A DNA stretch of 64,000 nt from a virus (IMGVR_UViG_3300032304_000826:1-64000); one strand, 5' to 3'; shown: positions 359-59,407, counted from the stretch's first letter. Notes: generated by a model not told the origin, from the sequence alone. Made by a program: numbers and translations.

Positions 359-673
359 TTATTTTTCCTTTTCTAACCATTCATCCAGGGTAAGGCCTTG
401 TTTTTCATACTTACGTTTCATAGCATTACGTTCTCTGTGAGACATGCCCCCAAAGATTCCATGAAGTTCGTCGTTAATTACAGCTTCACGTAAACATTGC
501 TTGCGAACAGGGCAGGCAGACTTACCGTCTTTGCCCCAACATATCGCTTTAGCTTTGTCTGCAATTGGCTTGTATAGTGCTTTGTCTCTTGGTGGAAAAA
601 AGATTTCAGTGTCTTCGCCACGACACTTTGCATCATATCTCCAAGCCCAGGGAGGATTTTCCCTGTTGTCCAA
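359..673 (-). CDS. whiB: WhiB-family Fe-S transcription factor
   Basis: W...AKCRGEDTEIFFP...AKAICWG...CPVRKQCL...GIFGG.S.RER: four Cys plus a G(I/V)(W/F)GG turn. Confidence 0.9.
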   Translation of the reverse strand: MDNRENPPWAWRYDAKCRGEDTEIFFPPRDKALYKPIADKAKAICWGKDGKSACPVRKQCLREAVINDELHGIFGGMSHRERNAMKRKYEKQGLTLDEWLEKEK

Positions 674-9535: not shown

Positions 9536-9802
9536 TCACGAATTGACTTGGGAGACGCGTGTACGTCGTCTTCTATTAATGCGGACTCTACTTCTATCTC
9601 GTGGCGTTGTGGCGCCCCATATCCCATCAAGATCCGGTTGAGATATTGCGTAATCGGCGCAAGGAGCGACAAGAGGGCACTTGTTACAGATATCTTTAGC
9701 CAGTCGAATCTGAGTGTGGCTATTGTAGTCCTGCGGAAAAAAAAGTTCCGGATCTTCCTTAGCGCATAGTTGACGGCCATCATACGGATACTCCTGAGCC
9801 AT
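9536..9802 (-). CDS. whiB: second WhiB-family protein
   Basis: CAKEDPELFFP...AKDICNKCPLVAPC...GIWGATT.RDR. Confidence 0.9.
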   Translation of the reverse strand: MAQEYPYDGRQLCAKEDPELFFPQDYNSHTQIRLAKDICNKCPLVAPCADYAISQPDLDGIWGATTPRDRSRVRINRRRRTRVSQVNS

Positions 9803-27407: not shown

Positions 27408-28043
27408 TTAAGAACCAAAGGTTCCGTTTGCGTTGAACTTCTTAGCTGAACCGCTGCTTGTGTAGTTTGACCCGAAAGTAACGTCAAACCCTTCATGAAC
27501 TAGAGTCATTTCTTCAACCATAAGAGTTGAAGATCCTGCATCTAGGTTGCTGTACCCAAGAGAGGTAATCCATGCATTGTGTACACGGAAGCGCATAGAT
27601 GCGTGTTGATCATACGCAGTCGCTGCAGCAGTTGTTCCTTCTGAACCAGCATATGCTGCTGGGTTTGGGTGGCTCAATACTGCGATATCAATATCGCAAC
27701 GGAAGTTAGCGCCAATGCCGCTTGTAGCATTTGGTGTTAGTACTGAGAACAGGCGGCGCATCCACTTAGCGTGAGCATCATTTCCCAACATTACGCCCTT
27801 TGAAAGGCTGATTGGGCTGAATGAGCTTTGACCAGGAATCTGGTGCACGTTTGTGTTGTAGCCACCTTCGCGGTACGCGATTGACTCTGTTGTAACGCTT
27901 AGGCCGGAGAGTGAAACAAACCCCATTTTTCCAAATGAAGCTCCCCACTTACCGTCAGCGTTCTCTGGCAGAAACTCAACCACGAACTTAAAATTACGTA
28001 CTGGATCTGTTGCCAGAGTACTTAAGGGGTTAGTGTAAGACAT
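27408..28043 (-). CDS. tail tube protein (T4 gp19-like)
   Basis: DPVRNFKF.V, GF.SLSGL, YREGG, ISLSKG, NAW, VEEMTLVHEG. Confidence 0.92.
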   Translation of the reverse strand: MSYTNPLSTLATDPVRNFKFVVEFLPENADGKWGASFGKMGFVSLSGLSVTTESIAYREGGYNTNVHQIPGQSSFSPISLSKGVMLGNDAHAKWMRRLFSVLTPNATSGIGANFRCDIDIAVLSHPNPAAYAGSEGTTAAATAYDQHASMRFRVHNAWITSLGYSNLDAGSSTLMVEEMTLVHEGFDVTFGSNYTSSGSAKKFNANGTFGS

Positions 28044-28057
28044 TTCTTTTTATCTCC

Positions 28058-29623
28058 TTACGCCGTAGCGTTTCCTGTTAGCTGACCAAGTTTGATGACA
28101 ATAAACTCTGCTGGGTACTCTAGAGCTACGCCAATTTCGATGTTGACGCGACCTGAAGTAAGGTCAGCAGAACTGTTTGTTGATGCATCGCACCGTACAT
28201 AGAAAGCCTTGTCTGGACTTGATCCACGAAGTCCACCCTGTTGCCAGTATGAACGTAGGAAAGAGCCAAGAGCAACACGAAGCTGAGACCATAGACGTTC
28301 GTCATTGTTCTCAAAAATCGCAAATGAGCTTCTATCTGTCATTTCTTTCTTGATGTATGTTAGGGAGCGACGTACGTTGATGTAACGGTCTCCCGGGGTG
28401 TTGTTCATTGTACGTCCGCCCATTACAACAATTCCGGCACCAGGTACTTGACGGATTACGTTAACTGGACGTTGTGAGACGTTCAAGGAATCTAGTTGAG
28501 CATTAGTTAGTTGACGTTCTGCAGCTACTGCAAGAGCTACGCGGTTTGTATAACCGGCAGGAGTCTTGAATACGCCACGAGAAGCATCAGTAGCTAAGTA
28601 CTGGCCTACCATTGCAGCACCAGGTGCTTGATTACGAGTTGCAGCAGCTGAGGCACGAAGTGTGTCTGGGATGGTTACCCATGGGTAGTAGACGGCAGCA
28701 CAGCCACCATCAGATGCGGCAATAAATGCTGCAGTTACGTCATTTGCATATGTTTGAGCCTCAGCTGGTGTAAGACCTGCTGGGGTATCTACAACCGCAA
28801 ATGCATCTCCACGGCCTTCGCAATAAGCTACAAGGTCTGCTTGAACGTTAATAGAGAGTGTTCGCTCAGTAGTAGTTCCAGCAGTAGTGTAGATGTATGC
28901 AGCGTTTGGTACGTTAAATACCATAGGATTGTCAATTGGGTCAAATGACTCAAGAGCCGTTGAGTACTCAGTTCTTGTTGGTGCAGATCCGTTAAGGCCT
29001 GATGAAAGAGACTTTACTCCGTCAACCTTAGGCATATCATCTGGAGATACAGAAGCTGAGTTTAGATCAGATACTATAATAACGCCAGATTGTGAGTTAA
29101 TTACTGATACCACGTAGCGTGGATCAGTAGGATCCATGCTTAGATCTGTGTATTGCTCAAGAATATTAGAGGTTGCATTACCACCAATAGTTGGAGCTCC
29201 ATATACTACAAGAGAGAATCTATTTACTACTCCCGCAGCTTTTGTTTCTACAGATAGAAGATTTCCCCAAGTACCAGCATTTGCAGCTCTTACTAGGAGG
29301 GTGTTTAGGGGTGTTGCAGCACGATCAGTCAATGTTACCTGAGCCTGTGCAGCACCTGTTCCTACTACACGCTTTACGTATAGTTGACGGCCGCCATTGG
29401 CAAAAAAGTTATAGGCAGCCCAAGTTGTTGGATAAGCGTCTTCTAGAACTCCAAAAGTCTTGGTAAAATCTGTCCAAGAGTTTAGAAGAACAGGGTTAAC
29501 TGAAGGTCCCTTTGATAGTGGACCTACAAATGCTCCAATAGCGTTTCCGCTATCTGCAAGAGTTACCGCCTGTGGAAGTTCAACTTCCTGAATGAAAACG
29601 CCGGGTCTACTGTATGTAGCCAT
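28058..29623 (-). CDS. tail sheath protein
   Basis: RPGVFIQE, FFANGG, YYPWV, RGVFKTPAG, YINVRR, FENND, PAEFIVI. Confidence 0.95.
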   Translation of the reverse strand: MATYSRPGVFIQEVELPQAVTLADSGNAIGAFVGPLSKGPSVNPVLLNSWTDFTKTFGVLEDAYPTTWAAYNFFANGGRQLYVKRVVGTGAAQAQVTLTDRAATPLNTLLVRAANAGTWGNLLSVETKAAGVVNRFSLVVYGAPTIGGNATSNILEQYTDLSMDPTDPRYVVSVINSQSGVIIVSDLNSASVSPDDMPKVDGVKSLSSGLNGSAPTRTEYSTALESFDPIDNPMVFNVPNAAYIYTTAGTTTERTLSINVQADLVAYCEGRGDAFAVVDTPAGLTPAEAQTYANDVTAAFIAASDGGCAAVYYPWVTIPDTLRASAAATRNQAPGAAMVGQYLATDASRGVFKTPAGYTNRVALAVAAERQLTNAQLDSLNVSQRPVNVIRQVPGAGIVVMGGRTMNNTPGDRYINVRRSLTYIKKEMTDRSSFAIFENNDERLWSQLRVALGSFLRSYWQQGGLRGSSPDKAFYVRCDASTNSSADLTSGRVNIEIGVALEYPAEFIVIKLGQLTGNATA

Positions 29624-30755: not shown

Positions 30756-30832
30756 AGTAAATCCTCCAGTAGAAGGCGCAGGTTAAGCAGCAGGGTTCCG
30801 GGTTTCCCCGGCGTCACTTCAAAGGATAAATG

Positions 30833-30854
30833 AAAAAGCCCCCTTTCGGGGGCT
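30833..30854 (-). terminator. intrinsic terminator
   Basis: AGCCCCC-GAAA-GGGGGCT-TTTT on the minus strand after the basic ORF cluster. Confidence 0.85.
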
Positions 30855-30860
30855 AAGTCA

Positions 30861-31055
30861 TTACTTCTTTTTAATCTTTTTAATAATTTTGGCATCAATC
30901 TTTCGGTCTTCTGCCATAGTCTTTGGCTTCTTTTTGGCCCCATGAGCCTTGTCAGCCTTCTCAAATTTTGCCTTCTGATCCGGGGTCATGCCCTTAGTCA
31001 TTTTGGCGTCTTTCTTCTTATCCTTGGCTTCCGTGTACTTATCCTTAGTTGCCAT
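30861..31055 (-). CDS. small Lys-rich basic protein
   Basis: 64 aa, K/D rich; TAATG overlap with upstream ORF. Confidence 0.75.
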   Translation of the reverse strand: MATKDKYTEAKDKKKDAKMTKGMTPDQKAKFEKADKAHGAKKKPKTMAEDRKIDAKIIKKIKKK

Positions 31056-31198
31056 TACATGCCCTTCTTTCTAACCATATTTGACTTCTTGGCTTTACCC
31101 TTAGAGTCAGACTTTTTATCGTACTTCTTGTTAGCCGCGGTCAGGGTCTTCATACCGTGCTTGTCTTTAGGCTTACCGCAGCCACAGGTAGAGCACAT
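31055..31198 (-). CDS. 47-aa basic protein with MCSTCGCG metal-binding N-terminus (not in ORF track)
   Basis: MCSTCGCGKPKDKHGMKTLTAANKKYDKKSDSKGKAKKSNMVRKKGM; TAATG overlaps at both ends. Confidence 0.75.
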   Translation of the reverse strand: MCSTCGCGKPKDKHGMKTLTAANKKYDKKSDSKGKAKKSNMVRKKGM

Positions 31199-31365
31199 TA
31201 CTTTTTCTTCTTCTTTGAGCGAAGAGCAGCAAAGTCAGATCCTTCTAGCTTGCCGTCTTTGTCTGCATCAAGCTTCTTTTGCTTTGGAGACATCTTCTTA
31301 CCGCCCTTTTTGCAGGCGCCTTTACAGCCTGGCTTTGAGCAACCACATCCACATGACTTACACAT
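31198..31365 (-). CDS. 55-aa basic Cys-rich protein with EF-hand-like loop (not in ORF track)
   Basis: MCKSCGCGCSKPGCKGACKKGGKKMSPKQKKLDADKDGKLEGSDFAALRSKKKKK; TAATG overlaps. Confidence 0.75.
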   Translation of the reverse strand: MCKSCGCGCSKPGCKGACKKGGKKMSPKQKKLDADKDGKLEGSDFAALRSKKKKK

Positions 31366-31499
31366 TATTTCTTACCTTTCTTAGGTTTAGCGACTTTGTC
31401 TTTTCCTTTACCTTCAGGCACACAGTTTGGCACCTTCTTACCGTTTTGATTCTTCATACCAACTTGGACGTATCCGTCCCAGCAAGGATTCTTAGCCAT
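31365..31499 (-). CDS. 44-aa basic protein with CW.GY...G.K...VPNCV motif (not in ORF track)
   Basis: MAKNPCWDGYVQVGMKNQNGKKVPNCVPEGKGKDKVAKPKKGKK; TAATG overlaps. Confidence 0.75.
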   Translation of the reverse strand: MAKNPCWDGYVQVGMKNQNGKKVPNCVPEGKGKDKVAKPKKGKK

Positions 31500-31708
31500 T
31501 ACTTACCTTTCTTATGGGGGTTCTTCTTATGCCAGTCTTTGGTGGCCTTAACGCCTTCCTTGACTGTCTTAGCCCCAGCTTTCTTAGTTAGATTAATTTT
31601 ATCGTATTTTCCAGCCTTAGCGCTAGCTTCGTGGTCAACAATAATGTCGCCTTTTTTATTCTTCTTTATTGTGTGGCCTGCGCCACCTACTTTAATTTTA
31701 GAGGGCAT
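31499..31708 (-). CDS. small Lys-rich basic protein
   Basis: MPSKIKVGGAGH...; start moved to ATG 31708. Confidence 0.7.
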   Translation of the reverse strand: MPSKIKVGGAGHTIKKNKKGDIIVDHEASAKAGKYDKINLTKKAGAKTVKEGVKATKDWHKKNPHKKGK

Positions 31709-32273
31709 CTCTAGCTCCAAACGCACTGTAGTTTGCATACTGCTGGAATTGAGGATCATTAATCATTTCTTCAGCGTTTACCTGGTTACAGTCAATACTA
31801 AAAAGGGTGTAGTCATCGGTGATAATTCCCTTAGCAAATACCTGCTTAGGGGTAAATACCTGGTTACGGAATATAATTCGGTCTCGTAAATAAGAGTCTG
31901 GGTTTGTAGGGAGATACTTGAGTTCAGGAATAATCTGAGACTCTGCTCCAGACAAGCTAGATCCGTCAATTACGTCCATATTTATAGTAACGCGAAGTAC
32001 GTCAGTATTGTAGAAACCTCTGTCGCCTTGGACAGTTACGCCTTGGAATAGTGCAGCATTGACTACAGGGATGCTGTGTGGACCATCCCATCTACGGCCA
32101 CCACTGTTGTTACCCACATCGTAGATTGGGTCTACAACGCTAGTGCTGCTGTTATAGAACCACCACTCTATATCATAACCAACAGTACGAACTACTTCTT
32201 TTGAGGTGCCAGAGATAATAGAGGCACGCTCATGCTGTACGTTAAAGCGGCCCTCCACTCTCTCGCCACGCAT
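31698..32273 (-). CDS. head closure/neck protein
   Basis: DPIYD, RGFYNTD, DRI.FRN.VF, EEM.ND.QF; position between head and tail genes. Confidence 0.55.
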   Translation of the reverse strand: MRGERVEGRFNVQHERASIISGTSKEVVRTVGYDIEWWFYNSSTSVVDPIYDVGNNSGGRRWDGPHSIPVVNAALFQGVTVQGDRGFYNTDVLRVTINMDVIDGSSLSGAESQIIPELKYLPTNPDSYLRDRIIFRNQVFTPKQVFAKGIITDDYTLFSIDCNQVNAEEMINDPQFQQYANYSAFGARDAL

Positions 32274-32482
32274 TAGTCCTCCTGAGGAGCGGTAAACGTA
32301 CCGGTCTCTGGGTCGTAGGTGCTGCTAATAAATACGCCACCCTCTACATCGGTTACGTCAACCATTAGAGGTTCGCTTAAAAATATAGCTGCTAGACGAT
32401 CATCTGTATGGATGATATCTACTACCTCATTGTCAATAATAAATGCGACTTTATTTGGCGGCATGTTAGGTGCAGTAGTCAT
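32273..32482 (-). CDS. small fibre-associated protein (chaperone-like)
   Basis: VAFIIDNEVVD...STYDPETGTF; TAATG-coupled start at 32482. Confidence 0.6.
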   Translation of the reverse strand: MTTAPNMPPNKVAFIIDNEVVDIIHTDDRLAAIFLSEPLMVDVTDVEGGVFISSTYDPETGTFTAPQED

Positions 32483-32724
32483 TAGATCTCTTCCTTGTAC
32501 GATATTTGTATGGCTTCCCACTTATGCAGTGGGCAAGAAGCATTAGGCAGCTTTGTCTTTAGCTTCATTATACACCCGCACTCTTTGCACTGCGAAGTAG
32601 ACTTTATAAATCTATCGCAGCCTTTGCAAATGTCTAGGCGCTCTGAAGCAAGCTCGTTTTCTACACGGCCTATGTTTTTATTAAAAAGGTCCCACGGCCT
32701 AGCAGGTCTTGTATTTTCAGTCAT
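32482..32724 (-). CDS. small Cys-cluster protein
   Basis: RLDICKGC...QCKECGC.M..KTKL.NASCPLHKW. Confidence 0.75.
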   Translation of the reverse strand: MTENTRPARPWDLFNKNIGRVENELASERLDICKGCDRFIKSTSQCKECGCIMKLKTKLPNASCPLHKWEAIQISYKEEI

Positions 32725-32732
32725 TGCTCTCC

Positions 32733-34478
32733 TTAAATTGTTCCCAGGAAGTTATCGAGTGTTGATCCTTGAGACCCTGTTGAAGGGGCCTTAATTATAC
32801 CTACCGAGGTCCCCTTTGTAGGGCTGGTAGGCGTAATAACTATATTTGAGCCTAGTTGGCTTGTCAATCCTGCAGAAGCGTACGCCTTAGCGGTAATCTG
32901 GTTTCCAACAGTAGATACTATCAAAGAGCCTACAGTAGTGTAGGTAGTGTTTGTGTTGGTAGCTAGTCGGGTGGAGGATTGGGAAACTACGTTTCCAGAG
33001 ACTGAGCTAACTATAACTAAGTCTGTAAAGTAGGTAGTATCTCCACCAGAGTAAGATACGCCCGAACAACAGCCAGATGGCGTACACCCTGCTCCCGAAC
33101 AGGTAGCCTGTCCTCCAGAGCAAGAGCTGCTTGTTGCTATTTGATTTTGATTTAGGCCTCCGCACGCACCGCCGGAGTAGCAGTTAAACCCGATACAAGA
33201 CGCAGAGCCTGAACAGCTGCTAGAACTTACAAGCGTTGCACAGGAGTATGTTGTTGGAGTAGATGAAGAAGTAGTATGGCAATTGTAGTAATCAACGGGC
33301 ACCGTATTAGTGCTTTGGATATAGTTTCCAATGCATTTTCCTCTACTAACTGTTGAGGTCTGACAGTTATCCCAGCAAGGAATGTATGATGTTGAACAGT
33401 TTCCACTACAGCTTACGGTAGTGCCACCACTACCGGTCCTACAGCAAACAAACGCGGCATTGTTAATACAGCCTGCAGTTGATCTAGATACTTCAACGTC
33501 TCCTGGAGCGCAACCTTCTCCACCAATAAGTGGGCTTTCTGCGGGGTAATAAGAGAACCCGCTACCTCCAGTAGTTACCGATCCGGAACATTGAGTTCCA
33601 CAAGCTGGTATAGAATATGAAGTTGATTGAACAACTCCTGAGCATTGCGTACCACAGGCTGGGGTGGTATAGGTAGTTTGAGTGGTTGTACTTTGGTCAT
33701 AGGCTGTTCCTGGACAACAAGGGGAGCTTGGACTACCGACCCAACCTATAGAAAAATTTGTATAGTTACAGTAAGAGTTATCTACACTTTGATTTTGTGT
33801 AAACGCATACGTAGCGCCGCAACCTGAAGCGCAGCTGCTAAGAGTAACGCTGTTTTGAAAACTAGTACAGTTTAGGCTTCCTGGTGACGAAGTGACCGGT
33901 CCGCAACATCCTGAAGGAACACAGCCAGTGCCGCCTCCAGCACACGGGCTAGAAGTTCCATAACTTTGACTGCCTGAACAAGATGTCCCAGAAACGGTTG
34001 TATTCCAAGTAGAGTAGTAGTAACTAAAAGATTGAGATGTCGTGCAACTTCCTACAATAGCTGAAGTAGACTGAGTATATTGAGGATATGTAGCCCACCA
34101 AGATCCAGAGTCTGTTACCCAGAAAGCAACGCCAGTACCGCCTGAAACATCTGCCTGTGCAGAGATATCCGTGTTACCTAGATTAGCTGAGGCTATTGCA
34201 TAAGAGCTTCCAGCATCATCTGAGATAGCTGAGTTAGACCCACTAATACGCCAGTTACCACGAAGAGCTGTCCATACCTGTCCGCTATCTGCAGTGCCTA
34301 ATCCAGTTACTGTAGATGCTCGGTTAAACGCGTCTTGAACTTTAGAGGCAAACCATTGTCTCCATACGCCACCAACTTTAACGAATGCAGAAGTAGCGGT
34401 TTTCCATTGACCGCCTACTTTTACTGAAAGACCAGATGTGGTCCTCCAGGTACCGTTAACTTTGGATTGACCTGGCAT
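32733..34478 (-). CDS. Cys-rich putative adhesin / fibre tip protein
   Basis: N-terminal KV.G.W repeats; central Ser/Thr/Gly insert with ~36 Cys. Confidence 0.75.
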   Translation of the reverse strand: MPGQSKVNGTWRTTSGLSVKVGGQWKTATSAFVKVGGVWRQWFASKVQDAFNRASTVTGLGTADSGQVWTALRGNWRISGSNSAISDDAGSSYAIASANLGNTDISAQADVSGGTGVAFWVTDSGSWWATYPQYTQSTSAIVGSCTTSQSFSYYYSTWNTTVSGTSCSGSQSYGTSSPCAGGGTGCVPSGCCGPVTSSPGSLNCTSFQNSVTLSSCASGCGATYAFTQNQSVDNSYCNYTNFSIGWVGSPSSPCCPGTAYDQSTTTQTTYTTPACGTQCSGVVQSTSYSIPACGTQCSGSVTTGGSGFSYYPAESPLIGGEGCAPGDVEVSRSTAGCINNAAFVCCRTGSGGTTVSCSGNCSTSYIPCWDNCQTSTVSRGKCIGNYIQSTNTVPVDYYNCHTTSSSTPTTYSCATLVSSSSCSGSASCIGFNCYSGGACGGLNQNQIATSSSCSGGQATCSGAGCTPSGCCSGVSYSGGDTTYFTDLVIVSSVSGNVVSQSSTRLATNTNTTYTTVGSLIVSTVGNQITAKAYASAGLTSQLGSNIVITPTSPTKGTSVGIIKAPSTGSQGSTLDNFLGTI

Positions 34479-53167: not shown

Positions 53168-54244
53168 TTAGTTGGTTTCTGCTAGAACTACAGACTGATC
53201 TGTGATTAGACCTAGGCCGTAGATTGCGTACCAAGCAAGCGCATGCTCACGACCGAAGTCAAGAATACCGCCATCGCGGAGCTCAACTGGTAGAGAGATT
53301 GCGTGACCGAATGCATTGTCACCAATAAAGATAGCTGTGTAGCGATCCTTATTACCGTTACCGGTCTTTGTGATTGGTGTAGTGTAACCTCCACCAGTTG
53401 GGTATGCAATGCTGCCAGCAGCAACTGCGGTGTCAGCAGAGTATCCTGAACCTGCACCGTTTGTTACCTTCTGGATCTGTGTGGTCTCGATAAATACTGT
53501 GTCGTATAGACGACCAATTTCACCAAGCATGAAGTTACCTGGAGCTGCGTACTTTGTTACTTCGATAAACTCTGGGTTGTCGCGAAGCTTACGGCTCTGG
53601 TGTGGGTGAATGAATGCAACATATGTCTCACCTAGGCGAGGAATGTTCTTTGTTGCAAGTGTTTCTACTGCGTCCTTGACAACACCTGTGGTGAGGTCAA
53701 ATGCGCCAGTTAGAGATGCACGGTTAGTACCAGCGGTACCTGTTCCGTACCAGTCATTTGCAGCTGTAAGACCTGAGCGGTCGTAGCCGTAGATAACTGA
53801 AGATGCGGCCATGAGTGTGTCACGAGCCTGACCATCAAGGTATAGGGCCATGTTACGGCCGAGTAGACGTGAGGCTGAAGCCATTACGTCATCGAATGAT
53901 GCGTTGAGTAGGAGTTCAGAAACAGCAATTGCATAACCGTGTTCAGCAACTGTGATTGAGAATTGCTGAGCTGTTAGTGCCTTAGTTTCCATACGAACGC
54001 CTTCAACAAGCGTACCGGCAAAGCCGAGGTTGTTGTAACGCATAAAGTTAATCTGAAGACCTGGTGCAACTCCTAGTTCTGTCTTCTTAACAGCGAACTG
54101 TTCGAAGCGAAGAATAGGCATTGACTGGAAAAGGATTTCCTTTGACCAGATGGTCTGAATTGCTTGTGTAAGCTGGCTGTTAGCGCCAGAATACGCTGTT
54201 GGGGCAGCGGCTAAATTGCCGGTACCAGTTACGGCTGATGCCAT
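53168..54244 (-). CDS. major capsid protein (N4-gp56-like)
   Basis: LRFEQFA, L.EG, EHG.A, HP.Q...LR, GEIG.LY...FIET, D.GRE..LAWY; strongly biased codons. Confidence 0.9.
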   Translation of the reverse strand: MASAVTGTGNLAAAPTAYSGANSQLTQAIQTIWSKEILFQSMPILRFEQFAVKKTELGVAPGLQINFMRYNNLGFAGTLVEGVRMETKALTAQQFSITVAEHGYAIAVSELLLNASFDDVMASASRLLGRNMALYLDGQARDTLMAASSVIYGYDRSGLTAANDWYGTGTAGTNRASLTGAFDLTTGVVKDAVETLATKNIPRLGETYVAFIHPHQSRKLRDNPEFIEVTKYAAPGNFMLGEIGRLYDTVFIETTQIQKVTNGAGSGYSADTAVAAGSIAYPTGGGYTTPITKTGNGNKDRYTAIFIGDNAFGHAISLPVELRDGGILDFGREHALAWYAIYGLGLITDQSVVLAETN

Positions 54245-55182: not shown

Positions 55183-56892
55183 TTAGTTTTCCCCGTATTT
55201 CGAGTCTTCTTTACTTCCTCGACGTTGTGGGAGCTTAGTACCATATGCTTTTGTTACTAAGTCTGCTTGCATCTGCTCAATTGTTTGGGCCTCAAATGGA
55301 GTTACTATTCCTGGTTGGCCAGAAGGTCCAGGCCCAATGCCTGCTCCAGCCTCTTGTCCAGGAGCCATTTCCAGGCCCTGTCCTTCAGGTAGTAGTCCAG
55401 TGAGTGATGCAATAGCTGAGTTGATCTGTGACTTGATGAGGTTCAAAGCTCCATCGGCCTTGGCGTCTTCGATAAGCTCTGTACGAATTTCGTCTAGCTT
55501 CTCGTCTGGGAACTCTTCACCTAGGGTACGCAACGCACCTTCTCGGCTTTCCAAGTTCATGCTCATCTTTGTCTGGATTTCGTTCAAAAGAATTAGCTTG
55601 TCTAGTGGGAGAGGCTGTGGGAAGTGCACAGAGGTCTCATACGTTAATGGATCATTAGGGTCGCATACCTGCAGTTGATCCGATTTAATTGGGCCGTTAA
55701 AGTCTGGGTTGTATACAAATAGCTCTGGTTCCTTAACTGCAAGGGTTAAAAGAACAAGTTCGTTAATTCGCTTTAAACCTTCGCTATATTGAACGATCTT
55801 TTGATTGTATCGGTTCATAAGCGGCTGGTATTGAATAGCCAATGCAACACCTGAAGTGTTAGAAATTTGCTGTACTTGACCAAGTGCGGTTTCTGGAACA
55901 CCAATCATTTCGTGCATAGATGTCTTAATGATCTTTAAGTACTCCATAGCACCGACAAGGCCTTGTCCGCCACCTTCTAGGTTGAATACTTGAGCGTCTT
56001 TTGGTAGCCCGCCCCAGACCTTTTTAGGTCCCTTTTCTAGGGACGAGGCCTTAGCACCTGTAATAACAGTAACTGGTGCCGCATGGTAGTTAACAATATC
56101 TGAGATATCAGTAGCAATTTCGTTGTAGCTACGGTTTAAAACAATAATGTCGTGGCCATCTGAAAGGCCCCATGGAGAACCAGAAACACGTACGTTAGGT
56201 ATATGAATAACCGGAACAGTTCCTAGTGGGTTTGGCCGTGAATCAATAAGCTCATCATTAATATATTCTTCAATACGGTCATCTGTAAGGATTTCAGTGT
56301 ATGTGTATACCTGGCGTGTTCCTTCAAGGGAAGTACCCCAGAAACGATACTTAAGCTTAAATCGTATTAAACGTGAGCGATCGTGTGGGTGAAACTCTGG
56401 AAAACAAAATGAAGAGTTAAGCGGAAGTACTCGCACACGTCCTGGATGAGTACGGCCTACGCTATCTGTAAACGCTTCTTCATAGGCAACCTTTACGAAA
56501 CAGTCTCCAGAAACGCCGCCTTGCTGGCCCATTTCCCACATAACGCCATGCTTATCGTTATCTGTTTCCCACACTCTTTGTAGGATGTCGGGGATGATTG
56601 CTTCTGTTGCGTGAGGGCTACGGAATGAAGCTCCGCGACCAAAACTAAAATTTACTATGTAATCTGTGAAAGCTCTGTAATAGTTAAATACCATCTGTGC
56701 TTCGCCAATTTCACGGCGGTAAGCCCAATGGTGGCCAAGGTACATTGCCCAGTTAAGGGAGTATCTATTTAGGCGTGGACCATGAACTTCGAACTCTTCG
56801 TCAGCAAGTTCTACAAGTCCTAGTGGGGAAATGGAGATTGTTAAGTCGGATGAGGCTGCCCTGTAACTCGGTGGGCTAAAGTCAATACTCAC
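55183..56892 (-). CDS. portal protein (SPP1 gp6-like)
   Basis: FNY, G.VSGD.F.KV, NPLG.VP.IH.PN, WG.SD, SG.AL.I...PL. Confidence 0.88.
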   Translation of the reverse strand: MSIDFSPPSYRAASSDLTISISPLGLVELADEEFEVHGPRLNRYSLNWAMYLGHHWAYRREIGEAQMVFNYYRAFTDYIVNFSFGRGASFRSPHATEAIIPDILQRVWETDNDKHGVMWEMGQQGGVSGDCFVKVAYEEAFTDSVGRTHPGRVRVLPLNSSFCFPEFHPHDRSRLIRFKLKYRFWGTSLEGTRQVYTYTEILTDDRIEEYINDELIDSRPNPLGTVPVIHIPNVRVSGSPWGLSDGHDIIVLNRSYNEIATDISDIVNYHAAPVTVITGAKASSLEKGPKKVWGGLPKDAQVFNLEGGGQGLVGAMEYLKIIKTSMHEMIGVPETALGQVQQISNTSGVALAIQYQPLMNRYNQKIVQYSEGLKRINELVLLTLAVKEPELFVYNPDFNGPIKSDQLQVCDPNDPLTYETSVHFPQPLPLDKLILLNEIQTKMSMNLESREGALRTLGEEFPDEKLDEIRTELIEDAKADGALNLIKSQINSAIASLTGLLPEGQGLEMAPGQEAGAGIGPGPSGQPGIVTPFEAQTIEQMQADLVTKAYGTKLPQRRGSKEDSKYGEN

Positions 56893-57769: not shown

Positions 57770-59407
57770 TTACTTAAAGAAAGGGGATGCGCTTACCTCT
57801 ACGGTAGGCATAACCATCTCTTGAGTTAAAGAACAAGCTAGGGCCAATGCGTCCACAAAGTCGTCGTGAGCATGCGCCTCTTCAGGAGCCGCCACTAAGA
57901 AATTAGGACCCTTATATTGTACTTCCGCATCGGTCATTTGTTGGTAGAAACGCTTCCACATACGTAATCTTCTAGTTTTGGCGTGAGCTGGCCAAGATAT
58001 CATCTGGCGTTGAATTAGGGCTTGAAGGTGCTTCCAACGCTTTGACTGCTCTGTAGGGCTAGAAAGGGATGAGATTACCTGCGCCCTAGGTAGCAAAATC
58101 CTTAATCTTTGGGCTACGGCATCGCCTACTCCGTTAGAGTCCACAGCAACAGCCATGACGTCATAATTACCTAAAAAGTTAACTATTTGAAAATACTGTT
58201 CTTCCCAGTCATCCCCCTGGATTTCCATCCAGTTTAAGATGCGGTGGTCGTAGTATCCAAACTCATCTGGACGATCCCAGTCAACCCATACAACTGTAAC
58301 GACTGTTGAGTCCATTTTTCTAGCTGGGTCAATACCGACTACTACAGGAGATCTATGCCAGCTTTTGACAACTTCTTGGGAAGTATCGCCAAGGTCATCC
58401 ATAACAGATGAGGTAACGAACATTCCACGTTCTAGTAGCCATTTGCAGTTATAGGAGAGCTGGAACTCGTCAGAGTCCTCTCCAATACGCAACATCTCTT
58501 TTCTAATGAACTTCTCGTAATTAGGGTTAAATTTAGCTACATCTTTCCAGTCCCATTGAAAATGGTTCTGTCTAGAGGATCTGCCTGTCTGCCTACGCTT
58601 GTTTAGTTGAATAGACCTATAAAAGTTATTCTTATGTGTAGTTGGTGTTCCTGTCTTAACCATAGTCGCGTTGTAGTACGCGCCCATAGGAGCAATAGAC
58701 TTAGAGACGATAAAGTCATCTGCTTCTTGACATTCGTCAATAACCATCAAATGAAAAGACTTAGACTCAATCTTTGCACGTGGGTTAGCTGTCATCATCA
58801 TAAGAGATGATCCTGAGTTCTTTAATTTAATATTTCTTGTTACGCCGGGAGTTTTGACGGTCATGTCATCAATTTCAGCATCCCCTAGAACTTCTAGCGC
58901 ACGTTCGCTTGTTAAGCGGGATACCGTTCTAGAAAACAAAGTTTCTGCCTGAGCTTGAATAGGGGCGAACATTCCCACCCATATACCGTCTGCAAACTTA
59001 CTTAGTAGCTCTGGATACATTCTTGCTAGGCGAGGTAGCAGAACCATTAAGGTAGCGACAGTATCGGCTACGGTCTCTGATTTACCTGACTGACGTGAGG
59101 CTAAAGCTGTTACCTCTTCGCCATCGTTAACAATTACCGACTCAATAATGCGTCTAGCTAAAGGCTTTTGATATGGGTGCAGGTCATGGCCTACTAAGAT
59201 AACCATAAAATCCATGATCTTATTTACAAGTAGATTAACAAACTCTTTAGATAACTCATCAAGCTCGTCCTCTTTATGAAGCTTTTCAAACTCTTCTACG
59301 TCGTCGTAATCGTAATCTTCATTGGGCGCATGGTCGACTTGATCTAGATCTTCGAGTTCACTTTCTTCGTCATCCTCAAAGTCTTCAAAATCAAAATCTT
59401 CTTTCAT
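57770..59407 (-). CDS. terminase large subunit
   Basis: LHPYQ, SRQSGKS, VIDECQ, TGTP, GIDPA..D, HDDFVDALALA; acidic N-terminus. Confidence 0.93.
   Translation of the reverse strand: MKEDFDFEDFEDDEESELEDLDQVDHAPNEDYDYDDVEEFEKLHKEDELDELSKEFVNLLVNKIMDFMVILVGHDLHPYQKPLARRIIESVIVNDGEEVTALASRQSGKSETVADTVATLMVLLPRLARMYPELLSKFADGIWVGMFAPIQAQAETLFSRTVSRLTSERALEVLGDAEIDDMTVKTPGVTRNIKLKNSGSSLMMMTANPRAKIESKSFHLMVIDECQEADDFIVSKSIAPMGAYYNATMVKTGTPTTHKNNFYRSIQLNKRRQTGRSSRQNHFQWDWKDVAKFNPNYEKFIRKEMLRIGEDSDEFQLSYNCKWLLERGMFVTSSVMDDLGDTSQEVVKSWHRSPVVVGIDPARKMDSTVVTVVWVDWDRPDEFGYYDHRILNWMEIQGDDWEEQYFQIVNFLGNYDVMAVAVDSNGVGDAVAQRLRILLPRAQVISSLSSPTEQSKRWKHLQALIQRQMISWPAHAKTRRLRMWKRFYQQMTDAEVQYKGPNFLVAAPEEAHAHDDFVDALALACSLTQEMVMPTVEVSASPFFK

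What the first reader, a model, noticed from the sequence alone, without database searches (positions are those of the whole stretch)
31055..31365. Two micro-proteins start with the HypB-type MCxxCGCG metal-binding motif; one also has an EF-hand-like loop
Seen: MCSTCGCG... and MCKSCGCGCSKPGCKGAC...DADKDGKLEGSDF. Established: E. coli HypB begins MCTTCGCG, an N-terminal high-affinity Ni/Zn site; DxDxDG is the EF-hand Ca-binding loop; dense CxC runs resemble metallothionein. Inference: phage-encoded metal-carrying peptides fused to DNA-binding basic tails. They could package metals (or Fe-S/redox capacity for WhiB) into the virion in metal-poor water. I know of no description of this in phages, but could not search.
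Basis: partly seen in the sequence, partly recalled or inferred. Interest (0 to 1): 0.7.

Follow-up and report, generated by a model that had tools for sequence, protein, structure and literature searches.

The report
Cysteine-capped lysine-rich phage micro-proteins
Two tiny, very basic proteins in the neck-gene region of a 102-kb phage of Actinobacteria begin with the same three-cysteine motif that HypB uses to bind nickel; they are conserved across a whole phage clade, so a new family of probably metal-binding small phage proteins is real, but what it does is still unknown.

Summary
Observation confirmed. Minus-strand ORFs 31198..31365 (55 aa) and 31055..31198 (47 aa) both start MCxxCGC. They belong to a chain of five Lys-rich micro-genes joined by TAATG stop/start overlaps. 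The chain follows a neck (stopper-like) gene and ends at an intrinsic terminator just before the tail-terminator, sheath and tube genes.

Both are real genes:
- 178 and 96 homologue clusters.
- dN/dS about 0.05-0.10.
- Synteny is kept in 47 viral loci whose sheath proteins are only 38-93% identical.

Cys2, Cys5, Gly6 and Cys7 are nearly invariant. The cap is modular: it sits on three different Lys-rich tails or stands alone. All 71 aligned 47-aa-family members hit NCBIfam HypB_prefix_1, but below its cut-off. The phage has no HypB GTPase domain, so these are not HypB.

The 55-aa tail carries one dockerin/EF-hand-type loop-helix. A family profile finds the same module inside larger phage proteins that pass Pfam's Dockerin_1 or EF-hand cut-offs. 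About one fifth of homologues lack the canonical loop.

Best reading: late-expressed, polycationic, metal-capped (Zn, Ni or Fe undetermined) small proteins, most likely associated with the virion or its DNA. Metal binding, DNA binding and virion location are all inferred, not shown.

The parts
31198..31365 (-). C55: 55-aa micro-protein. It has an N-terminal Cys cap (6 Cys in residues 2-18), a Lys-rich linker, one EF-hand/dockerin-type loop-helix and a poly-Lys C-terminus.
   Evidence: ORF. 178 homologue clusters. Alignments A1/A2. dN/dS of the tail 0.05. AF2 gives helix-loop-helix at residues 27-54 with pLDDT 63.
31312..31365 (-). Cys cap of C55 (residues 1-18): MCxxCGC plus three more Cys.
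   Evidence: The commonest Cys count per homologue is 6 (86 of 120). Variants have 3, 4 or 9-10 Cys.
31231..31269 (-). EF-hand/dockerin-type loop of C55 (residues 33-45).
   Evidence: Pfam EF-hand_1 E 0.025 and Dockerin_1 E 0.059, both below cut-off. The pattern is present in 95 of 120 homologues. Profile hits in larger proteins pass the Pfam cut-offs. The best PDB hits are dockerins.
31055..31198 (-). C47: 47-aa micro-protein. It has a HypB-prefix-like N-terminus (Cys2, Cys5, Cys7, His14), a Lys-rich tail and a conserved C-terminal RKKGM end.
   Evidence: ORF. 96 homologue clusters. Alignment A3. HypB_prefix_1 at E 3.5e-4, 21.9 bits against a cut-off of 30. All 71 members hit that model. dN/dS 0.10.
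30861..31055 (-). K64: 64-aa Lys-rich micro-protein and last gene of the chain.
   Evidence: Capped versions of this tail occur in L014, L022, L025, L028, L064, L071, L072 and L082.
31365..31499 (-). CW44: 44-aa Lys-rich micro-protein with a two-Cys motif (CWxGY ... NCVP) that occurs inside larger proteins of many aquatic phages.
   Evidence: PHROG hits at E 1e-8 to 5e-4 to internal parts of larger families. 128 phage records.
31499..31708 (-). K69: 69-aa Lys-rich micro-protein and first gene of the chain. Its ATG at 31708 lies behind a GGAG and overlaps the end of the upstream neck gene.
   Evidence: Sequence read. Homologues at the same position in related loci.
30828..30854 (-). Intrinsic terminator (7-bp G+C stem, GAAA loop, T-run) 7 nt after the K64 stop.
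31698..32273 (-). p191: upstream gene, a neck/stopper-like head-completion protein that is translationally coupled to the chain.
   Evidence: AF2 model with pLDDT 70. Foldseek top hits are phage neck, connector and stopper chains at E 1.5e-4 to 1e-2. It holds the same position in 25+ loci.

Best explanation
C55 and C47 are real, late-expressed phage micro-proteins built from three parts.

(1) An N-terminal Cys cap. After the usual removal of Met1 (Cys is a permissive second residue), the cap offers the free alpha-amine plus the thiolates of Cys2, Cys5 and Cys7. These are the same ligand set as the high-affinity site of the HypB N-terminus. C47 adds His14, and C55 adds three more Cys, giving Cys4-Cys6 sites. 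I infer that the cap binds a transition metal (Zn, Ni or Fe; undetermined) and so folds or cross-links an otherwise disordered peptide.

(2) A polycationic Lys/Ala-rich tail, which I infer binds a polyanion, most likely DNA.

(3) In C55 only, one dockerin/EF-hand-type loop-helix. It may bind Ca2+ and/or pair with a second copy or a partner protein.

The genes are translated by stop/start coupling with a neck gene inside the structural module, at the 3' end of an operon. I therefore take them to be virion-associated: internal or neck-channel proteins that travel with the packaged DNA and neutralise part of its charge, in the manner of T4 internal proteins, protamines or retroviral nucleocapsid protein.

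Shown: the genes are real, the motif is conserved, the parts are modular, the synteny is kept, and the motif classes are as stated. Inferred: metal binding, DNA binding and virion location.
For: Real genes:
- 178 and 96 homologue clusters.
- dN/dS 0.05-0.10, and third-codon-position variability about three times that of positions 1-2.
- Cys codons are a mix of TGT and TGC, and Gly6 uses all four codons.
- 85 of 109 capped genes start in a TAATG overlap.

Conserved place:
- The order p191, micro-genes, tail terminator, sheath, tube holds in 47 loci with sheath identity 38-93%.
- Essentially every locus has at least one capped ORF, and 35 have two.
- A terminator follows directly, and p191 has a neck/stopper fold.

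Cap:
- The HypB N-terminal site uses the N-terminal amine plus Cys2, Cys5 and Cys7 and binds Ni at pM affinity (PMC12284835).
- The C47 family hits HypB_prefix_1 in 71 of 71 members.
- Bacteroidota HypB proteins share about the first 10-13 residues.
- The cap is combined with three different tails and also occurs alone as 28-42-aa ORFs, so it is an autonomous unit.

Tail: net charge +12 to +14 and 27-36% Lys in all five chain members.

EF/dockerin module.

Head association of the module elsewhere: in four T4-like loci the protein carrying this module lies between the portal and prohead-protease genes, which is the position of T4 prohead-core genes.
Against: - There is no experimental or proteomic evidence for metal binding, DNA binding or presence in virions.
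- The closest cultured phage (Streptomyces phage BRock) lacks the cluster, so no proteome can be borrowed.
- Some close relatives have lost Cys7 (a Cys4 variant in L017, L034 and L035) or the whole cap (L048, L049, P0118).
- Distant relatives place the Cys cluster internally, which argues against a strict need for the N-terminal amine.
- 25 of 120 homologues lack the canonical Ca loop.
- The EF and CW modules also occur next to terminase genes or in cytidylyltransferase-HNH proteins, so their genomic context is not uniformly structural.
- The HypB_prefix and EF/dockerin scores of the window proteins are below the curated cut-offs.
- The AF2 model is of low confidence.
Confidence: 0.45

Rival explanations
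1. Intracellular metal hijack or mimicry. The capped peptides act in the infected cell, not in the virion. As free-standing copies of the HypB N-terminal site they would capture Ni or Zn, or compete with host metallochaperone partners. That would re-route metal supply to phage or host enzymes, or buffer metal toxicity late in infection.
For: C47 resembles the HypB prefix beyond the seven-residue motif. The HypB N-terminal site is a high-affinity Ni store that interacts with SlyD. The cap is an autonomous unit that also occurs alone.
Against: The phage carries no HypB G-domain, Ni-SOD or peptide deformylase gene. The genes sit in the neck module and are coupled to structural genes rather than to early or auxiliary metabolic genes. 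The extreme Lys content is not explained by this role. The Ni-SOD search had no positive control.
Confidence: 0.15
2. The cysteines act as redox or disulfide staples, not as a metal site. After lysis into oxic water the N-terminal Cys clusters would form inter- or intramolecular disulfides. These would lock the peptides to each other or to the Cys-rich virion proteins encoded nearby.
For: A 581-aa protein with about 36 Cys (32733..34478) and a Cys-rich DUF6171 protein (32482..32724) lie 1-3 kb upstream in the same strand and module. The Cys number in the cap varies from 3 to 10 between relatives.
Against: The invariant spacing CxxCGC with an invariant Gly is typical of metal knuckles rather than disulfide partners. 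An odd number of Cys (3) is the commonest minimal form. The similarity to the HypB prefix points to metal chemistry.
Confidence: 0.12
3. Ca-dependent docking adaptors on the outside of the particle. The dockerin-like loop-helix of C55 would plug into a virion protein (capsid, neck or fibre). The Lys tails would then help adsorption to the anionic actinobacterial cell wall.
For: The closest solved sequences to the tail profile are dockerins. Larger relatives pass the Pfam Dockerin_1 cut-off with two repeats. Fibre cassettes lie directly upstream.
Against: Only one of the two repeats that define a dockerin is present. C47 and K64 have no such loop, and one fifth of C55 homologues lack it. No cohesin-like partner was identified.
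Confidence: 0.1
4. The ORFs are not functional genes. They would be chance ORFs in an A-rich spacer, or fragments of a decayed larger gene.
For: The ORFs are very short and of low complexity. A 315-aa ORF runs antisense across the whole chain (30942..31889). Related modules exist inside larger proteins elsewhere.
Against: There is strong purifying selection in the minus-strand frames. Hundreds of homologues keep the same length and start. TAATG coupling is conserved, and synteny holds across sheath identities down to 38%.
Confidence: 0.02

Closest known systems
N-terminal extension of HypB (NCBIfam HypB_prefix_1, NF053667); CxxCGC high-affinity Ni site
   Same: The motif starts at residue 2, with Cys at positions 2, 5 and 7 and Gly at 6 and 8. 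The first 8 residues of C47 differ from E. coli HypB at one position, and Bacteroidota HypB shares about 10 of the first 13. All 71 C47-family members hit the model at E<=0.01.
   Different: There is no GTPase (cobW/HypB) domain in the protein or anywhere in the phage, and no His-rich stretch. A Lys-rich tail follows the motif instead. Scores stay below the curated cut-off of 30 bits. C55 does not hit the model.
Dockerin type I (PF00404) / EF-hand Ca2+-binding loop (PF00036, PROSITE EF-hand pattern)
   Same: A 12-residue Asp/Asn-rich loop with Gly at position 6, a hydrophobic residue at position 8 and an acidic residue at position 12, followed by a helix. The best PDB sequence hits are dockerins. 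The profile of the family finds proteins whose matched stretch passes the Pfam cut-offs.
   Different: Only a single loop-helix is present, whereas dockerins and functional EF-hands come in pairs. The window protein scores 14-15 bits against cut-offs of 23-25. The loop is degenerate in about 20% of homologues.
Small basic nucleic-acid-condensing virion proteins: T4 internal proteins IPI-III, retroviral nucleocapsid (zinc knuckles plus basic residues), protamines (from general knowledge; HIV NC condensation in PMC11209390)
   Same: Similar size (about 50 aa), very high positive charge, a Cys-based metal motif next to basic stretches (as in NC and protamine P2), and genes in the structural module.
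   Different: There is no sequence similarity. The Cys spacing is not CCHC. No capsid-targeting or protease-cleavage signal was recognised. Virion location is untested.
Metallothioneins
   Same: The C55 cap has 6 Cys in 18 residues with CxC and CxxC spacings and no aromatic residues. Some relatives carry an extra Cys-rich insert, giving up to 9-10 Cys.
   Different: Cys is confined to the first third of the protein, and C47 has only three Cys. No metallothionein family was hit in Pfam or NCBIfam.

Membership tests
HypB (hydrogenase Ni incorporation GTPase) | SIMIBI-class GTPase domain (Pfam cobW, PF02492) | tested here: not met
   No match anywhere in the 102-kb genome, while the control rang in 13 of 14 genomes. 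The proteins are only 47 and 55 aa long.
HypB (hydrogenase Ni incorporation GTPase) | N-terminal CxxCGC motif with Cys at positions 2, 5 and 7 | tested here: met
   Literature definition in PMC12284835.
NCBIfam HypB_prefix_1 (NF053667) domain | Score at or above the curated cut-off (30 bits) | tested here: not met
   C47 scores 21.9 bits at E 3.5e-4. 71 of 71 family members reach E<=0.01, best 1.7e-5. C55 has no hit.
EF-hand | Canonical 12-residue loop (PROSITE-type pattern) flanked by two helices | tested here: met
   The pattern, written from memory, matches C55 residues 33-45 and 95 of 120 homologues. AF2 predicts helix 27-33, a loop, then helix 42-54, at low confidence.
EF-hand | Pfam EF-hand_1 gathering score; paired hands | tested here: not met
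   14.6 bits against a cut-off of 25.4. Only one loop per protein.
EF-hand / dockerin | Ca2+ binding | not testable with these tools
   Needs ITC, Tb3+ luminescence or NMR.
Dockerin type I (PF00404) | Two tandem 22-residue loop-helix repeats; Pfam gathering score 22.9 | tested here: not met
   One repeat only, scoring 14 bits. Larger relatives with two repeats do pass: P0150, P0160, P0180 and P0209.
Metallothionein | High Cys content throughout, with metal-thiolate clusters | tested here: inconclusive
   Cys makes up 33% of the first 18 residues of C55 but 11% overall, and C47 has 3 Cys. No family hit. Cluster formation is not testable here.
T4-type internal head proteins | Packaged in the capsid; N-terminal capsid-targeting sequence removed by the prohead protease | not testable with these tools
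   No sequence similarity and no cultured relative carrying the cluster. Only context supports this: the neck module here, and the EF module lying between portal and protease genes in other phages.

The most novel reading that the evidence does not exclude
A clade of actinobacterial myophages packages 'metallo-protamines'. These would be about 50-aa polylysine peptides whose HypB-type N-terminal amine/tri-thiolate cap binds Ni or Zn (plus Ca in the EF-type loop). They would condense the genome in the capsid and enter the host with the DNA. That would make them the first metal-capped DNA-condensing internal proteins described in a phage, and the first use of the HypB N-terminal site outside hydrogenase maturation.
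Probability: 0.2. Interest if true: 0.8.

Novelty: new variant of a known kind. Interest (0 to 1): 0.6.

Why it matters
If the cap binds metal, this family would carry the HypB N-terminal site, a seven-residue motif with picomolar Ni affinity, outside hydrogenase maturation and as a portable module on phage micro-proteins.

The cluster of 3-8 translationally coupled Lys-rich micro-genes in the neck module is a conserved and so far unannotated feature of a large clade of uncultured phages with WhiB genes. All its members are listed as 'hypothetical' or missed altogether. Some gene callers start at Met8 and cut the cap off.

The family gives a testable entry into three questions:
- how these phages neutralise packaged DNA;
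- whether virions carry bound transition metals or Ca;
- what the widespread EF/dockerin-like and CW mini-modules of aquatic phage proteins do.

The peptides are short enough to synthesise, so the chemistry can be tested directly.

Tried and rejected
- DNA and protein searches of 50,697 cultured-phage records with the region and with C55 found nothing. The closest cultured phage by sheath, Streptomyces phage BRock (34% identity), has no micro-gene cluster upstream of its sheath gene.
I used the search for related loci instead.
Whether MCxxCGC-initiated micro-ORFs exist outside this clade therefore remains open.
- AF2 of C55 was of low confidence (pLDDT 63), so I ran no fold search on it.
- RiPP-precursor idea: there is no radical-SAM gene in the genome and the neighbours are structural genes, so I dropped it.
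- Link to N-terminal processing enzymes: the phage has no peptide deformylase.
- Ni-SOD link: no hit, but the control did not ring either, so this is uninformative.
- Literature searches for phage metallothionein-like or Lys-rich internal proteins gave nothing relevant.
- The antisense 315-aa ORF (30942..31889, + strand) is rejected as a by-product of Lys codons on the coding strand.

Full report
**What is there**

The window is the first 64 kb of a 102,347-bp virus record with direct terminal repeats. Nearly all genes run on the minus strand. The gene order is:
- terminase (57770..59407), portal (55183..56892) and major head protein (53168..54244);
- long fibre cassettes;
- a neck region;
- tail sheath (28058..29623) and tube (27408..28043).

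Three WhiB genes point to an actinobacterial host. The closest cultured phage by sheath is Streptomyces phage BRock, at 34% identity.

The two ORFs of the finding lie exactly where stated, on the minus strand. C55 is 31198..31365 and C47 is 31055..31198. Both start MCxxCGC(G). They are the third and fourth genes of a chain of five Lys-rich micro-genes:
- K69, 31499..31708
- CW44, 31365..31499
- C55
- C47
- K64, 30861..31055

Each gene is joined to the next by a TAATG stop/start overlap. All five have a net charge of +9 to +14 and 27-36% Lys. The first gene overlaps the end of the upstream 191-aa gene behind a GGAG. The last is followed after 7 nt by a strong intrinsic terminator.

The AF2 model of the 191-aa protein (pLDDT 70) finds phage neck, stopper and connector chains as its top Foldseek hits. 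Downstream come a weak HK97-gp10-like protein, a tail-terminator-like protein and the sheath. The chain therefore sits inside the head-completion/neck module.

**Are they genes?**

Yes.
- C55 has 178 homologue clusters and C47 has 96, many on contigs of 85-105 kb.
- A scan of viral contigs gave 133 relatives, of which 80 loci were kept.
- In 47 loci that include both flanking markers, the order neck gene, micro-genes, tail terminator, sheath, tube is kept although sheath identity falls to 38%.
- 46 of these loci have at least one Cys-capped micro-ORF. In the remaining locus (L024) my ORF caller started upstream and masked a cap that one search shows.
- 35 loci have two capped ORFs and two have three. 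Each locus has 3-8 Lys-rich micro-ORFs.
- Pairwise dN/dS is about 0.10 for C47 and 0.05 for the C55 tail, and the third codon position is about three times as variable as the first two. The sets were chosen by protein motifs, which biases dN downward somewhat.
- At the invariant Cys and Gly positions the codons vary freely: TGT/TGC are mixed and all four GGN codons occur. 85 of 109 distinct capped genes begin in a TAATG overlap.
- The 315-aa ORF on the opposite strand is a by-product of Lys codons.

**The cap**

Cys2, Cys5, Gly6 and Cys7 are conserved in at least 90% of C55 homologues and are invariant in the C47 alignment. That alignment also keeps Thr4, Lys13, His14 and Gly15 invariant.

The cap behaves as an autonomous module:
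- It heads three different, probably paralogous, Lys-rich tails: the C55 type, the C47 type and the K64 type. The K64 type is uncapped in this window but capped in at least eight other loci.
- It occurs alone as 28-42-aa ORFs (L073, L068, L038, L048).
- It can be split from the C55 tail into a separate ORF (L048).

It also varies:
- Three Cys only in one subgroup.
- Six Cys in the commonest form.
- Nine or ten Cys where an extra Cys-rich insert is present.
- A four-Cys form without Cys7 in L017, L034 and L035. L035 is otherwise about 90% identical to this phage.
- A few forms with no cap at all.

**Relation to HypB**

The literature defines the HypB N-terminal site as CxxCGC. It binds Ni(II) with picomolar affinity in a square-planar complex formed by the N-terminal amine and Cys2, Cys5 and Cys7 (PMC12284835).

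- I read the E. coli K-12 hypB gene. Its first eight residues differ from C47 at one position.
- NCBIfam has a model for this N-terminal domain, HypB_prefix_1. C47 matches it over residues 1-35 at E 3.5e-4 and 21.9 bits, against a cut-off of 30.
- All 71 aligned family members match that model at E<=0.01, and C47 is the only match in the phage genome.
- A scan of one genome per prokaryotic species with the C47 alignment returned only genuine HypB genes of Bacteroidota. They are 271-292 aa long, with a His-rich stretch and a G-domain, and share roughly the first 10-13 residues with C47.
- The phage has no HypB G-domain.

The micro-proteins are therefore not HypB. C47 carries a HypB-prefix-like N-terminus, by capture or by convergence. 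Because Cys is a permissive second residue for methionine aminopeptidase (general knowledge), the free amine needed for a HypB-like N1S3 site would be available.

Two observations argue against a strict HypB-like chemistry. The profile search found more distant relatives in which a CxxCG-containing Cys cluster precedes the same tail module inside larger proteins, where no N-terminal amine exists. The Cys4 variants also look like ordinary Zn or Fe knuckles. Which metal is bound cannot be decided from sequence.

**The EF-hand-like loop**

C55 residues 33-45 fit the EF-hand loop pattern. AF2 predicts helix, loop, helix for residues 27-54, at low confidence. Pfam scores are sub-threshold: EF-hand_1 E 0.025 and Dockerin_1 E 0.059.

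Independent support:
- A profile of 110 family members searched against 1.84 billion representatives found 454 proteins at E<=1e-3. In most of them only the tail module matches, inside proteins of 30-1115 aa.
- 135 of the top 150 hits carry the loop pattern.
- In several hits the same stretch passes Pfam's Dockerin_1 or EF-hand cut-offs, often as a pair of loops.
- The closest solved sequences are dockerins, followed by EF-hand proteins.
- The protein-language-model neighbours are clusters named EF-hand and dockerin.

The module is therefore a single dockerin/EF-hand-type loop-helix. It is not universal, because 25 of 120 homologues replace the loop by a non-canonical stretch while keeping the following helix.

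**Context of the module elsewhere**

- In four loci of T4-like architecture (L057, L062, L067, L069) the charged protein carrying this module lies between the portal and the prohead protease/scaffold genes. In T4 that position holds prohead-core genes (the T4 gene order is from general knowledge).
- In L060 and L070 the module-bearing protein lies next to the large terminase gene.
- In L059, L065 and L076 it follows a cytidylyltransferase-like multidomain protein.
- The CW44 motif is equally promiscuous. It occurs in 128 cultured-phage records, mostly cyanophages, and in a 347-aa protein downstream of the portal of Actinomycetia phage DSL-LC01.

These contexts lean toward head and packaging genes but are mixed.

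**Mechanism**

I commit to the following reading.
- The genes encode late, translationally coupled, polycationic micro-proteins.
- A metal clamps their N-terminal Cys cap.
- Their Lys-rich tails bind DNA.
- They are most likely carried in the virion, in the capsid interior or the neck channel, where they act as counter-ions or organisers for the packaged genome.
- The single EF/dockerin loop of C55 provides Ca-dependent pairing or docking.

Confidence by step:
- Real, selected genes: about 0.97.
- The cap binds a transition metal: about 0.7.
- The tail binds nucleic acid: about 0.5.
- Virion-associated: about 0.4.

The rivals are in their own section: intracellular metal hijack or HypB mimicry, disulfide stapling, external Ca-dependent docking, and non-genes.

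**Novelty**

All homologues are annotated 'hypothetical' or carry no name. No paper in the searched library describes them. The component motifs are known. New here are their combination, their strict N-terminal placement on phage micro-proteins, and the conserved micro-gene island in the neck module.

Noticed in passing
window 31365-31499 (-); L065:890-3100, L063:40-2598, L092:4701-5744: The 44-aa CW44 micro-protein is a free-standing copy of a two-Cys motif (CWxGY ... NCVP). The motif sits inside larger proteins in 128 cultured-phage records, including T4-like cyanophages, haloviruses and Methylophilales phages. Among the fetched loci, a CW-motif ORF is followed within 500 nt by the EF-type module in 34 of 43 cases, including unrelated phages, although those loci were selected for the EF module. 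Its function is unknown.
   Followed up: partly
L057, L062, L067, L069: In T4-like loci a 340-520-aa highly charged protein carrying the same EF/dockerin-type module lies between the portal and prohead-protease genes. In L057 a Cys cluster lies just upstream of the module. This is a candidate prohead-core or internal protein.
   Followed up: partly
window 31698-32273 (-): The 191-aa protein upstream of the chain has no Pfam or PHROG hit. Its AF2 model resembles phage neck, stopper and connector proteins (GTA, T4, Pa193, SPP1, Pam3).
   Followed up: yes
window 32482-32724 (-): An 80-aa DUF6171 / phrog_13558 protein also contains a CxxC ... CxxCGC arrangement. It lies next to a 581-aa fibre-like protein with about 36 Cys (32733..34478), so the module is unusually Cys-rich overall.
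   Followed up: no
window 30942-31889 (+): A 315-aa Leu/Phe-rich ORF runs antisense to the whole micro-gene chain. It is an artefact of AAR Lys codons on the coding strand and could mislead gene callers.
   Followed up: yes
P0357, P0360, P0364, P0366-P0368, P0375, P0383 (homologues of C47): Where residue 8 is Met, public gene calls start at Met8. They give 39-40-aa proteins and cut off the Cys cap, so databases under-report the motif.
   Followed up: partly
P0112, L071:2276-2446; C47 family C-terminus: The conserved C-terminal RKKGM end of the C47 type also appears at the end of some C55-type proteins. It may be a further portable mini-motif, possibly a docking or processing signal.
   Followed up: no
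window 419-643 (-), 9587-9775 (-); G000 78100-78300 (+): There are three WhiB-family genes in one phage genome, all above the Pfam cut-off.
   Followed up: no
L009, L013, L018, L022, L028, L068, L071 (micro-gene island): Related phages carry further micro-protein types in the same island, for example a 43-47-aa type starting MPFKS and a 55-aa type with a WDKKDP motif. The composition of the island turns over between phages.
   Followed up: no
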